Made by a program: the position numbers and the translations under genes
Source: Escherichia coli
GTDB taxonomy: Bacteria > Pseudomonadota > Gammaproteobacteria > Enterobacterales > Enterobacteriaceae
Assembly (NCBI RefSeq): GCF_030013205.1
Contig: NZ_CP122648.1
DNA: 64,000 nt
Reading direction: 5' to 3' (one strand)
The notes under the pieces: generated by a model
The model's input: the letters and a program-made list of their open reading frames with translations, nothing else
Databases searched by the model: none
What the model was told of the DNA's origin: nothing
Part shown: one piece after another, positions 22,672 to 24,939 of the stretch
Numbering within the stretch: position 1 is the stretch's first letter
How the letters are laid out: each line of letters starts with the position of its first letter

Positions 22672-22676
22672 ACATC

Positions 22677-22698
22677 GCCGCCTGCGGGCGGCTTTTTT
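22677..22698 (+). terminator. rho-independent terminator after Q
   Basis: gccgcc-tgcg-ggcggc hairpin followed by TTTTTT. Confidence 0.6.
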
Positions 22699-22840
22699 AC
22701 ACCCTGTCATCACGCCCTCACACGCTCACCACCGCACAAAACACCCCGCAGACACACCAACGCCTCAACGGGCAGACTAAACGCCGTCACGACGCGCTCA
22801 GACGCTGAAAAAATAAAATCAGCACCACCGCCAGCGCGCA

Positions 22841-22859
22841 GTGCTTTCCCCGCCTCGCC
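22841..22859. other. P2-type cos site (19-nt cohesive-end sequence; window carries the reverse complement of GGCGAGGCGGGGAAAGCAC)
   Basis: gtgctttccccgcctcgcc read directly; matches the P2 cohesive-end sequence as I recall it. Confidence 0.55.
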
Positions 22860-22987
22860 CGCCCGCTTCATGGGTCGGTTTTAATGCAGGTGCATGAACA
22901 CACTGGAGACGCACCAGTACTGGCGGTGGTCACGTAGATCCGCCCCTTAAAAGCCATGCAGAATAATGCAACTATTGCGGGCGTCGG

Positions 22988-23407
22988 CTAATCATCTTCT
23001 AAAGGTGGAATTTTGATGCCACTAATTAGCAGTACTTTCCGGTATGCCTCAAAAATAATGTTGTGTGTTTTTTGTAAATCATCGAGCATTTTTTGCCGTC
23101 CTGCTGGGGTATCTTTGGCAAAATTATGAGCGCGAAAAAAATCATGTGCCAAGTAGTTTCTGGCTTTAAGAGCATCTGACACATACTCCAGTGTATCAGC
23201 ATCCTCCACCATCCTAGACTTCAGTGCGTAATTCAATTTACCCAGCGTGTATTTATCCATTTCTAAAAACTGTTTTTTCAGCGACTGTATATCTTTCCCC
23301 TGACTCATATCATACTCAGTGATAACATTTATCAACTCAGTCTCCAGTAATTGAGCTGCTTCCGAAGCATAACCAAATTTCCAATAAACCGTATCAAGCG
23401 TCACCAT
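22988..23407 (-). CDS. hypothetical 139-aa protein, cargo gene 2 of the cos-proximal hotspot (putative defence partner)
   Basis: Intact ORF, AT-rich (~35-40% GC by spot count) versus ~58-60% in flanking phage genes; no family recognised. Confidence 0.6.
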   Translation of the reverse strand: MVTLDTVYWKFGYASEAAQLLETELINVITEYDMSQGKDIQSLKKQFLEMDKYTLGKLNYALKSRMVEDADTLEYVSDALKARNYLAHDFFRAHNFAKDTPAGRQKMLDDLQKTHNIIFEAYRKVLLISGIKIPPLEDD

Positions 23408-23498
23408 ATAATCTATTCCCCATATAACAAATCACACCCAAAATTAAATCATAACACATAATTAAATCTAACGCCTCTCTGCACCAGAAGAAGTCATG

Positions 23499-24830
23499 TT
23501 AACGCTTATCATGGAACTTTTTCCATTTTGTCATCAACTTTCCAGCATCAAGTTCTACATGATGCGGTTGTAGAGTTTTACCCTCAAACATAGTTTTGTG
23601 GATACAATTAATAGAGAAATGAACCGTTAAGTCCTCTGGATTAATCCCCATTAATCCTTTATCAAACATTCGGTGTAAACTTACTTCAAGTAACAGGCCA
23701 TTAGATGTGTTATTATTTGCTGATTCTGTTATTGCTTCAATATGTGCGGCTTCCAATATCCCCTCTGGCAATGGATAGCCAGTAATAGCACATCTGCCAT
23801 TGAAGTTATCCCAAACACGGCGTTTGAAATCAGCTTGATCTCCAGCATGACGGACTTTGTGAGTAACCTCGACTGTTCGTCCTGTAGCACAGGTATCGTT
23901 TGCGGCCTTGAAAGGATTAATTAGACTTTCATTAATGGCTATATCCGTTCCATCCATGATAAGAGATATTTCATTATTGGGTTCGGGTGATGTTAATGGA
24001 CTTATGTACTGATTGCTTAAAAAAGTCATACTAGATTCTTCATCAGTCGCGAGTTTCCACGCTTCTGATTGTGTCATTGTTAGCAATGCCGTTTGATAAA
24101 CTTGCTTATTAAAATAACGTTTATCTTTCTTGTAACTCCCCATATTAATAGTACTAGATTTAATCGGAAGTGTTTTATCACCAATTAGTAGATCACGTAT
24201 TTCTACAGTCTCTTCTAAGGTATCAATAGGAGCTACTATAGGGTTAGTAAACGGGTTATCTACATGATCTACGTGGTTGTGTCGTAAATGCCACTCTATA
24301 GCACTATCTTTTATATGTATCTCGCAGACAGGGCATACAATAAGCCCCATAGATGTTACAGGTAGCTTTTTGCCACCGATTAAGCGTAATGTATTTGCAT
24401 TCTGGTTATGTACTTTCTTTTGGTTCTGTGTCAGTACACTACGCTTAGCCTCTAAACGGGTCGGAATCTTAGCAAGATTAAGCGATTTACGGCTCTCTTG
24501 TCTCTCAAGATCATAGATCCGAATCCCTGCTTCAGTTTTGATTTTTGTCCACATAGAGATAGAACTAAGGAATTTATGTCCATGTACTTTTTCATAATCA
24601 GCATAAGCTTGCAAAGTAGCAGTGGAACTATCTAATCCTTTTTTACGGAGTGCTGTATATTGCTGAAAAAGATTAATAGCATGAGCTGTAATAGAGCGCC
24701 TATTCTCTATAATTTGCGCTTTTTTTGCTGCTTGTTCTGCTTGCAATGCTTTTTGTTCAGGGGTAAGCGACTTCTTTTTGGCTTTCTTGGTTCTTTTCTT
24801 ACTCAAAGTTTTCTTACTGTTATTGTTCAT
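23499..24830 (-). CDS. 443-aa protein with C-terminal HNH-type nuclease motif, Lys-rich N-terminus and a CxxC...HxxH segment; cargo gene 1 (putative defence effector)
   Basis: Motif NGRCAITGYPLPEGILEAAHIEAI...NGLLLEVSLHRMFDKG (aa ~343-392) resembles HNH_2-type nucleases; CPVCEIHIKDSAIEWHLRH at aa 166-184; ATG with AAGG RBS; AT-rich. Confidence 0.7.
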   Translation of the reverse strand: MNNNSKKTLSKKRTKKAKKKSLTPEQKALQAEQAAKKAQIIENRRSITAHAINLFQQYTALRKKGLDSSTATLQAYADYEKVHGHKFLSSISMWTKIKTEAGIRIYDLERQESRKSLNLAKIPTRLEAKRSVLTQNQKKVHNQNANTLRLIGGKKLPVTSMGLIVCPVCEIHIKDSAIEWHLRHNHVDHVDNPFTNPIVAPIDTLEETVEIRDLLIGDKTLPIKSSTINMGSYKKDKRYFNKQVYQTALLTMTQSEAWKLATDEESSMTFLSNQYISPLTSPEPNNEISLIMDGTDIAINESLINPFKAANDTCATGRTVEVTHKVRHAGDQADFKRRVWDNFNGRCAITGYPLPEGILEAAHIEAITESANNNTSNGLLLEVSLHRMFDKGLMGINPEDLTVHFSINCIHKTMFEGKTLQPHHVELDAGKLMTKWKKFHDKR

Positions 24831-24939
24831 TTTGCAAGCCTTTAATCTAATTCATGGAAAGGGGCATTCACTTGCCCTGTATCCAGTAAACTGACATAAC
24901 ACGATATAAGCAAGCTCCGTAATTCTTTCATGTTAATCA

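What the first reader, a model, noticed from the sequence alone, without database searches (positions are those of the whole stretch)
22672..24939. Two-gene AT-rich cargo at the cos-proximal hotspot of the P2-like prophage: 443-aa HNH-motif protein plus 139-aa partner; candidate undescribed anti-phage defence module
The segment sits exactly where P2 carries its accessory genes old and tin, between the cos site (22841-22859) and replication gene A. P2-like prophages are known to exchange defence systems at this position. Spot counts give roughly 35-40% GC here versus 58-60% in the flanking phage genes, so it is foreign cargo. The 443-aa protein has a Lys-rich N-terminus, a CxxC-x11-HxxH zinc-finger-like segment (aa 166-184) and a C-terminal HNH-type motif (NGRCAITGYPLPEGILEAAHIEAI...NGLLLEVSLHRMFDKG). 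It has no Walker A motif, so it is not an Old-like ATPase. The 139-aa partner is intact, lies 91 bp downstream on the same strand, and matches nothing I recognise. The cassette has its own upstream spacer after the A stop and a strong terminator on the opposite strand.
Basis: partly seen in the sequence, partly recalled or inferred. Interest (0 to 1): 0.88.

Follow-up and report, generated by a model that had tools for sequence, protein, structure and literature searches.

The report
Two independent nuclease genes, not a pair
The AT-rich cargo next to the cos site of this defective P2-like prophage is real, but it is two unrelated single-gene modules placed side by side: a zinc-finger HNH DNA nuclease and a minimal HEPN-type (probable RNase) protein, both plausible but untested anti-phage genes of familiar kinds.

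Summary
Two intact minus-strand ORFs (443 aa, 139 aa) at about 38% GC lie between the P2 cos site and gene A. The "two-gene system" reading does not hold.

The 139-aa protein does match something. It has a confident all-helical model, an invariant R-N-x-L-x-H motif and fold matches to HEPN families, and it is the homologue of gp38 of Salmonella phage PSP3. It is always the last gene before cos. I found it in eight different hotspot arrangements, once as the only cargo, and with the HNH gene in only one lineage.

The 443-aa protein has a Lys-rich tail, a helical region, a C2H2 zinc finger and an HNH_2 nuclease domain with intact catalytic residues. Its 57-78% identical relatives stand alone in a Citrobacter island beside Gabija, a Pectobacterium integrative element and a lambdoid prophage. 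None has the 139-aa gene, any other shared neighbour, or a methyltransferase.

Most likely these are two autonomous nuclease effectors, a restriction-like DNase and an abortive-infection-type RNase. Rousset et al. 2022 listed the arrangement as "HNH_2 + hypothetical" but did not test it. It hits no named PADLOC system at full length. Verdict: new members of known kinds, moderate interest.

The parts
22677..22692 (+). Intrinsic-terminator-like hairpin (GCCGCCTGCGGGCGGC followed by T6) directly after the portal gene Q stop. It belongs to Q, not to the cargo.
   Evidence: sequence
22841..22859 (.). P2-type cohesive-end (cos) sequence GTGCTTTCCCCGCCTCGCC, the reverse complement of GGCGAGGCGGGGAAAGCAC.
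   Evidence: The identity of the P2 cos sequence is from established knowledge.
22860..22987 (.). Stretch of 128 bp between cos and the stop of the 139-aa gene. It is partly conserved in ST131, Salmonella and Kosakonia prophages that carry the gene. It is probably part of the cos flank and the right-hand homology anchor of the hotspot.
   Evidence: alignment A3; identity profile
22988..23407 (-). 139-aa minimal HEPN-like protein (PSP3 gp38 family). It is an autonomous module and is always the gene next to cos.
   Evidence: dN/dS 0.12-0.27
23144..23161 (-). Codons for R83-N-Y-L-A-H88, the R-x4-H motif of HEPN RNases. N84 and H88 are invariant and R83 and L86 are at least 90% conserved in 55 diverse relatives.
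23408..23485 (-). Conserved upstream region of the 139-aa gene with a promoter-like TTAGAT-17 nt-TTTAAT and a GGGGAA ribosome-binding site. Homology to other prophages carrying the gene stops here, right at the HNH stop codon.
   Evidence: Promoter function is inferred. The consensus scan did not list this site.
23499..24830 (-). 443-aa protein: Lys-rich tail, helical region (aa 24-116), C2H2 zinc finger and C-terminal HNH_2 nuclease. It is a stand-alone module.
   Evidence: dN/dS 0.23
24273..24335 (-). Codons for the C2H2-type zinc finger (C166, C169, H181, H186).
23640..23792 (-). Codons for the HNH_2 domain (aa 347-397), with invariant H363, N377 and H386.
24831..24939 (-). 109-bp AT-rich spacer between the A stop and the HNH start. 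A weak promoter-like site (TTCACA-16-TAACAT) spans 24957-24930.

Best explanation
The segment holds two independent single-gene cargo modules that recombination has placed side by side in the cos-proximal hotspot of a P2-like prophage.

Module 1 (443 aa) is a stand-alone DNA nuclease. A basic tail, a helical region and a C2H2 zinc finger would bind nucleic acid. A C-terminal HNH_2 (His-Me finger) domain would cut it. The protein never has a methyltransferase or any other conserved partner. It therefore most likely avoids host DNA by recognising a feature of foreign DNA (Type IV-like, modification- or structure-dependent) or by staying inactive until infection.

Module 2 (139 aa) is a minimal HEPN domain with its own promoter-like region. 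By analogy with other HEPN proteins, it would dimerise to form a composite R-x4-H active site and cleave RNA when triggered, giving abortive-infection-type protection.

Shown here: the domain identities, the conserved catalytic residues, purifying selection, the modular independence of the two genes and their location in the hotspot.

Inferred: nuclease activity, the substrates, the triggers and anti-phage function.
For: Independence of the two genes:
- The 139-aa gene (63-85% identical homologues) is the cos-adjacent gene in eight different arrangements:
  1. with HNH (window, L026-L028);
  2. with PDC-M18A/B plus the DUF2971 protein PDC-S31 in ST131;
  3. with Tum/DinI, a 243-aa and a 69-aa gene in Salmonella houtenae;
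  4. with DinI only in Kosakonia;
  5. with DUF3850 and a 68-aa gene in E. coli 06-3462;
  6. with 89-aa and 99-aa ORFs in L033;
  7. as the sole gene between A and cos in L031;
  8. as gp38 of the viable phage PSP3.
- In 5426 complete E. coli genomes the gene is present in 30. Only 11 of these carry HNH.
- HNH homologues at 57-78% identity stand alone beside Gabija in Citrobacter, in a Pectobacterium integrative element, and in a lambdoid prophage beside a CAP12-type TIR gene. More distant relatives (about 30% identical) lie in a Klebsiella aerogenes island. These contexts share no neighbour, and none has the 139-aa gene or a methyltransferase.
- DNA homology to other prophages carrying the HEPN gene ends at the HNH stop codon.

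HEPN identity of the 139-aa protein:
- The AlphaFold2 model has pLDDT 90 and five helices.
- Foldseek matches with names are almost all HEPN families: MAE_28990/MAE_18760-like (34% identical, E 9e-8, TM 0.87), DUF4145, DUF86, AbiU2-like, Apea-like and Cthe_2314-like.
- Weak Pfam hits converge on seven HEPN families.
- The R-N-x-L-x-H motif is invariant or nearly so across 55 relatives.
- The family has 1963 clusters in the representative library.

HNH identity of the 443-aa protein:
- Pfam HNH_2 and invariant H363, N377 and H386.
- The closest solved relative is entry 6yex (E 2e-4), which I recognise as the modification-dependent EVE-HNH enzyme VcaM4I.
- There is a sub-threshold hit to the phosphorothioate-DNA restriction family.

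Both genes are under purifying selection. The hotspot is an experimentally validated reservoir of defence genes.
Against: - No experiment bears on either gene. 'Defence' rests on location and domain type.
- No reader domain for modified bases was found in the HNH protein. Its model is poor (pLDDT 60), so the Type IV reading is weak.
- A partner-less, sensor-less HEPN RNase would need some unseen control to avoid self-toxicity.
- HEPN genes are known to cluster with restriction systems (PMC3710099), so functional synergy in this lineage is not excluded. The HNH plus HEPN arrangement persists with two HEPN alleles (L028).
Confidence: 0.6

Rival explanations
1. One reading: HNH and the 139-aa protein form one two-component defence system. 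For example, the HEPN protein would act as sensor, regulator or second effector of the HNH nuclease.
For: - The genes are on the same strand and 91 bp apart.
- The arrangement is at least 99% identical in 11 E. coli genomes and several viral contigs.
- HNH is also seen with a second, 85% identical HEPN allele in L028.
- HEPN genes often cluster with restriction systems.
Against: - Seven of the eight HEPN contexts lack HNH, and one has HEPN as the sole cargo.
- All HNH contexts outside this P2 lineage lack HEPN, and they share no neighbour.
- The HEPN gene has its own conserved upstream region, with the homology break at the HNH stop.
- The L028 mosaic arose from a crossover inside the HEPN gene, not from co-divergence of the pair.
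Confidence: 0.13
2. The 139-aa protein is not a defence RNase. It would be a phage accessory factor tied to its fixed position at cos, for example a packaging, lysogeny or regulatory helper, or a counter-defence protein. Its HEPN-like fold would be used for binding rather than catalysis.
For: - It is always the last gene before cos and is co-linear with a conserved cos flank.
- It is present in the viable phage PSP3, where the hotspot otherwise holds only Tum and a 69-aa ORF.
- No antitoxin or sensor accompanies it.
- Non-catalytic HEPN-like folds exist. One Foldseek match, for example, is annotated 'mannitol repressor'.
Against: - R83, N84 and H88 are invariant or nearly so in 55 relatives that share as little as 24% identity with it.
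- The family has 1963 clusters. The contexts examined include a Pantoea plasmid and chromosomal or metagenomic loci with no P2 A or Q gene and no P2 cos sequence.
- It is absent from most P2-like prophages, being present in only 30 of 5426 E. coli genomes although the cos flank matches in 2155. It therefore cannot be needed for packaging.
Confidence: 0.15
3. The HNH protein is a selfish or housekeeping phage nuclease rather than a defence gene. It would be either a homing endonuclease or a packaging-associated HNH of the HK97 gp74 type that assists terminase at cos.
For: - It lies about 640 bp from cos and close to the terminase genes.
- HNH_2-type C-terminal domains occur in lytic Salmonella phages such as 7-11.
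- The 500-aa relatives carry an extra segment of about 60 aa that resembles, by eye, an AP2-like DNA-binding fold common in homing enzymes.
Against: - P2 packaging needs no HNH factor, and most P2-like prophages lack this gene.
- Full-length homologues sit in non-packaging contexts: a defence island, an integrative element and a lambdoid moron site.
- The domain is HNH_2, not the PF01844 or HNH_3 types typical of gp74-like or homing enzymes.
- It is not inserted in or beside a conserved target gene or intron.
- No Pfam AP2 hit was found in any member.
Confidence: 0.07

Closest known systems
gp38 (orf38) of Salmonella phage PSP3 (NC_005340, NP_958097)
   Same: It is 72% identical over all 139 aa, the same length, and holds the same position as the last gene before the right cos end.
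   Different: In PSP3 the upstream genes are tumA, tumB and the 69-aa gp37, not an HNH gene. gp38 has no annotated function and none was found in the literature searched.
HEPN superfamily (Anantharaman et al. 2013, PMC3710099): stand-alone members such as MAE_28990/MAE_18760-like, DUF4145, AbiU2 and ApeA-type HEPN
   Same: All-helical bundle, conserved R-x4-H with Asn after the Arg, small size, and occurrence in mobile elements and beside restriction genes.
   Different: It passes no curated Pfam, NCBIfam or PADLOC HEPN model at threshold. It has no N-terminal sensor domain and no MNT or antitoxin neighbour. Activity is untested.
Type IV modification-dependent HNH restriction enzymes (VcaM4I, PDB 6yex; ScoMcrA-type phosphorothioate-dependent enzymes, NF045808)
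   Same: A C-terminal HNH_2 domain with the same R..Q..F..C..TG...AAHI...NG..L...H..FD pattern, a single polypeptide, and no cognate methyltransferase.
   Different: The N-terminal 320 aa show no EVE, SRA, YTH, ASCH or SBD reader domain. Instead there is a Lys-rich tail, a helical region and a C2H2 zinc finger. The NF045808 score is 33 bits against a cut-off of 180.
P2 old and tin, and the gpA-gpQ hotspot catalogue of Rousset et al. 2022 (PMC9122126)
   Same: Same locus. The paper lists 'HNH_2 + hypothetical' (WP_023304084 + WP_023281582) among hotspot arrangements.
   Different: There is no sequence relation to Old, since the protein has no Walker A motif. HNH does not appear in the paper's table of tested systems (Table S2).
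PD-lambda-3 component B (PADLOC PDLC03988)
   Same: A weak local hit from the 139-aa protein (E 0.0022, aa 32-95). PD-lambda-3 is an abortive-infection system.
   Different: The hit covers less than half of either protein, and the ST131 homologue does not reproduce it. It is treated as noise or very distant similarity.

Membership tests
HEPN superfamily | All-alpha four- or five-helix bundle fold | tested here: met
HEPN superfamily | Conserved R-x4-6-H motif | tested here: met
   R83-N84-x-L86-x-H88. N84 and H88 are invariant and R83 and L86 are at least 90% conserved in 55 relatives. All four are invariant in the 30 closer ones.
HEPN superfamily | Significant match to a curated HEPN profile | tested here: inconclusive
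   There is no Pfam hit for the window protein. Among relatives there are only sub-threshold hits, but they converge on HEPN_Apea, RiboL-PSP, LA2681, DUF4145, MAE_28990, Cthe2314 and Swt1. One relative hits PADLOC Cas13-ApeA at E 7.7e-4.
HEPN superfamily | Metal-independent RNase activity of a dimer | not testable with these tools
   This needs biochemistry. A tandem-duplicated family member (P0265) is consistent with function as a dimer.
HNH_2 (PF13391) His-Me finger nucleases | Profile match and catalytic H...N...H residues | tested here: met
   HNH_2 E 2.5e-10, with the full model covered. All 35 family members match. H363, N377 and H386 are invariant.
Type IV modification-dependent restriction endonuclease | Recognisable modified-base reader domain (SRA, EVE, YTH, ASCH, SBD or McrA N-terminal domain) | tested here: not met
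   The N-terminal 320 aa give no Pfam, NCBIfam or PDB-sequence match other than C2H2 fingers. The fold search of the low-confidence model was uninformative.
Type IV modification-dependent restriction endonuclease | Single nuclease without a cognate methyltransferase | tested here: met
   No methyltransferase is annotated in the stretch shown around the identical K_EC180 cassette (4 kb either side). None has a Pfam hit within 6 kb in the four other contexts.
Type IV modification-dependent restriction endonuclease | Cleavage depends on DNA modification | not testable with these tools
   This needs plating on T4 wild type, T4 gt and T4 C-containing mutants, or in vitro digests.
Co-inherited two-gene defence system (HNH + 139 aa) | The two families co-occur across divergent lineages | tested here: not met
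   Co-occurrence is confined to one P2 lineage. Seven other HEPN contexts and all other HNH contexts lack the partner.
Named PADLOC (v2.0.0) defence system | Full-length match to the system's component models | tested here: not met
   The HNH protein matches only generic 'HNH' models over aa 312-411. The 139-aa protein gives only a marginal PD-Lambda-3_B hit. Current DefenseFinder models could not be run.
OLD-family nuclease (P2 Old) | ABC-type ATPase with Walker A motif plus a TOPRIM domain | tested here: not met
   There is no GxxxxGK[ST] motif and no AAA or TOPRIM Pfam hit.
Packaging-associated HNH (HK97 gp74 type) | Small (about 100-120 aa) PF01844 protein, conserved beside terminase genes and required for cos cleavage | tested here: not met
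   The protein is 443 aa with an HNH_2 domain. It is absent from most P2-like prophages, and its homologues lie outside packaging modules.

The most novel reading that the evidence does not exclude
Both genes are active, autonomous single-gene anti-phage systems from families that no defence catalogue yet names. The 139-aa protein (PSP3 gp38 family, about 2000 clusters) would be one of the smallest self-contained HEPN defence proteins, with no sensor domain and no antitoxin. That would imply an unrecognised mode of activation, such as direct triggering by a phage protein. The HNH protein would use a bacterial C2H2 zinc finger and helical module as a new way of telling foreign DNA from host DNA.
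Probability: 0.3. Interest if true: 0.6.

Novelty: new member of a known kind. Interest (0 to 1): 0.36.

Why it matters
If confirmed, this would add two compact single-gene defence candidates from a hotspot with a good record of yielding defence systems. One is an HNH_2 nuclease whose target-recognition part is unlike those of known Type IV enzymes. The other is a very small HEPN protein from a large family that lies outside current Pfam and PADLOC models.

The analysis also gives a practical caution for hotspot mining. Genes that are adjacent, on the same strand and AT-rich in a P2 hotspot are often stacked independent modules rather than an operon-level system. The cos-adjacent HEPN gene also serves as a homology anchor for swapping the cargo upstream of it.

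Tried and rejected
- The fold search of the HNH model against the PDB gave nothing with E <= 0.001, because the model is poor (pLDDT 60).
- PDB sequence-profile searches with the 139-aa family gave nothing meaningful.
- The PD-Lambda-3_B hit was too weak and was not reproduced by a homologue, so I dropped it.
- I looked for a conserved partner of the 139-aa family in distant relatives. Small ORFs lie upstream in L014 and L024, but they are unrelated to each other.
- A 68-69-aa ORF (PSP3 gp37) recurs upstream in four Enterobacterial contexts. It is absent from the window, ST131, Kosakonia and L031, so it is not an obligate partner.
- There is no Rfam RNA in 22500-25100 and no tRNA in the window.
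- Accession-number searches of the literature and a search for PSP3 orf38 found no functional study.
- Isolated phage genomes hold no full-length HNH homologue.
- I considered and rejected the Old-like ATPase, packaging HNH and homing endonuclease readings. See the membership tests.
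Full report
**1. Observation**

The window carries two intact minus-strand ORFs, 23499..24830 (443 aa) and 22988..23407 (139 aa). They lie between portal gene Q (21637..22671, +) and replication gene A (24940..27258, -). 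The P2 cohesive-end sequence sits at 22841-22859.

GC content is 37.7% for the HNH gene, 38.8% for the 139-aa gene and 33-38% for the spacers. A and Q are about 53% as whole genes, and only local 300-bp windows reach 57-61%.

The 443-aa protein matches Pfam HNH_2 at aa 347-397 (E 2.5e-10) and has no Walker A motif. It has a C2H2-type finger whose conserved ligands are C166, C169, H181 and H186.

The "strong terminator on the opposite strand" (22677-22692, +) directly follows the Q stop and belongs to Q.

Both ORFs show purifying selection. dN/dS is 0.12-0.27 for the 139-aa gene against six alleles, and 0.23 for HNH against a 96% identical allele.

**2. The two genes are not linked**

*The 139-aa gene has many different neighbours.* The whole cassette is present at 99% identity or more in only 11 of 5426 complete E. 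coli genomes, mostly porcine ETEC. The 139-aa gene alone is present in 30. I found it in eight arrangements:
- With HNH, in the window and in viral contigs L026-L028.
- In 18 genomes (ST131 and relatives), downstream of PADLOC candidates PDC-M18A/B and the DUF2971 protein PDC-S31.
- In E. coli 06-3462, after DUF3850 and a 68-aa ORF.
- In Salmonella houtenae 186-like prophages, after Tum/DinI, a 243-aa and a 69-aa gene.
- In Kosakonia, after DinI only.
- In viral contig L033, after 89-aa and 99-aa ORFs.
- In viral contig L031, as the only gene between A and cos.
- In the viable phage PSP3, as gp38, the last gene before the right cos end.

In every case it is the gene next to cos. It keeps about 80 bp of conserved upstream sequence, with a promoter-like TTAGAT-17-TTTAAT, and a conserved flank reaching to cos. 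Homology to the window stops at the HNH stop codon.

*The HNH gene also travels alone.* Homologues at 57-78% identity stand alone in several settings:
- a Citrobacter island next to Gabija;
- a Pectobacterium integrative element;
- the moron region of a lambdoid prophage, next to a CAP12-type TIR gene.

More distant relatives (about 30% identical) lie in a Klebsiella aerogenes island. None of these contexts has the 139-aa gene or a methyltransferase. Their neighbours are unrelated to one another.

*The one apparent exception.* Contig L028 pairs HNH (97% identical) with an 85% identical HEPN allele. The identity profile shows a crossover inside the HEPN gene at about 23200, not co-divergence of the pair.

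**3. The 139-aa protein**

No Pfam, NCBIfam or PADLOC model matches it at threshold. PHROGs places it in phrog_12893, of unknown function.

A profile search of 1.84 billion representatives found 1963 clusters at E <= 0.001 and 646 at E <= 1e-10. Across 55 diverse members, G12, E22, G56, N84, H88 and G103 are invariant, and R83, L86 and F90 are at least 90% conserved. This gives R-N-x-L-x-H, the R-x4-H signature of HEPN RNases (PMC3710099).

The AlphaFold2 model is confident (pLDDT 90, five helices). Foldseek against AFDB50 returns relatives and structural neighbours annotated as follows:
- MAE_28990/MAE_18760-like HEPN (34% identical, E 9e-8, TM 0.87);
- DUF4145;
- DUF86;
- AbiU2-like HEPN;
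- Apea-like HEPN;
- Cthe_2314-like HEPN.

Weak Pfam hits among relatives converge on seven HEPN families. One relative hits PADLOC Cas13-ApeA. One family member is a tandem duplication of the domain.

I conclude that this is a minimal HEPN-superfamily protein and probably an RNase. The activity is inferred.

**4. The 443-aa protein**

All 35 aligned relatives carry HNH_2. H363, N377 and H386 are invariant.

The best solved relative is entry 6yex (E 2e-4), which I recognise as the modification-dependent EVE-HNH enzyme VcaM4I. NCBIfam gives a sub-threshold hit to the phosphorothioate-DNA restriction family, at 33 bits against a cut-off of 180. PADLOC gives only generic HNH models.

The N-terminal 320 aa show a Lys-rich tail, a well-predicted helical region (aa 24-116) and the C2H2 finger, but no known reader domain. 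The overall model is poor (pLDDT 60), and its fold search gave nothing.

The window protein and the lambdoid-prophage variant lack a segment of about 60 aa that the 500-aa relatives have.

A stand-alone restriction-type nuclease with no methyltransferase must spare host DNA in some way. It could recognise a property of foreign DNA (Type IV-like), or it could stay latent until infection. I favour the first, weakly.

**5. Comparison with what is known**

Rousset et al. 2022 showed that the gpA-gpQ/cos locus is a defence hotspot. Their Table S5 lists "HNH_2 + hypothetical" with WP_023304084 + WP_023281582. HNH does not appear in their table of tested systems. A 2026 preprint on P2 and P4 hotspots tested only P4 loci.

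The closest named gene for the 139-aa protein is PSP3 gp38, which is uncharacterised.

The content is therefore two uncharacterised families inside well-known effector superfamilies, at a known hotspot. These are new members of known kinds.

**6. Verdict**

The "two-gene module" reading and the claim that the 139-aa protein "matches nothing" are not supported.

Interest is moderate. Both genes are cheap, well-defined candidates for single-gene defence assays.

Noticed in passing
window 12500-30730: The P2-like prophage is defective. ogr, D, U and a truncated tape-measure gene (14595-16142, 515 aa) abut head gene L (16349-16918). About 15 kb of lysis, baseplate, tail-fibre and sheath genes present in phage 899 are missing. 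The prophage is flanked by fieF (11499-12419) and ends at int (29720-30730). The cargo genes are therefore kept in a prophage that apparently cannot make virions.
   Followed up: partly
L028 against window 22900-23210: A viral contig has HNH and the 5' half of the HEPN gene at 94-100% identity to the window. Its 3' half and the cos flank are only 53-80% identical and resemble the ST131 allele. This is a crossover inside the HEPN gene, so the gene acts as a homology anchor for exchanging the cargo upstream of it.
   Followed up: partly
window about 24210-24225 (between aa 202 and 206 of the 443-aa protein): Compared with the 500-507-aa relatives (Citrobacter, Pectobacterium), this protein lacks a beta-rich segment of about 60 aa (…DTDSRVNR…KWFDT) that looks AP2-like by eye. 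The 449-aa lambdoid-prophage variant lacks it too, with slightly different boundaries. No Pfam AP2 hit was found.
   Followed up: partly
L012 6631-8409 (Kosakonia radicincitans prophage): A 592-aa GmrSD_N/DUF262-type protein, which hits PADLOC NsnA and PD-T4-2_A, lies between cos and portal gene Q. This is cargo on the other side of cos from the usual hotspot.
   Followed up: no
L009 5660-5869; L016 5558-5764; L033 4564-4863; PSP3 gp37 (L052 4160-4369): A conserved 68-69-aa ORF (78% identical between Salmonella and E. coli) lies directly upstream of the HEPN gene in four contexts. ST131 prophages retain what looks like its 3' end plus a conserved hairpin. It is absent from the window.
   Followed up: partly
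L001 6148-8647 (E. coli ST131 strain SaT040): The ST131 P2 hotspot stacks PADLOC candidate systems PDC-M18 (A and B) and PDC-S31 (DUF2971) upstream of the HEPN gene. This is another example of several independent modules in one hotspot.
   Followed up: partly
L003 8702-11866 (Citrobacter) and L017 7655-8662 (lambdoid prophage): HNH homologues sit next to a Gabija-like pair (AAA_15/OLD-TOPRIM plus a UvrD helicase) and next to a CAP12-PCTIR TIR protein respectively. This is association with defence genes, supporting a defence role for the HNH family.
   Followed up: no
P0265 (331 aa, metagenomic): One member of the 139-aa family is a tandem duplication of the whole domain, with both R-N-x-L-A-H motifs intact. 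This fits a HEPN dimer forming one composite active site.
   Followed up: no
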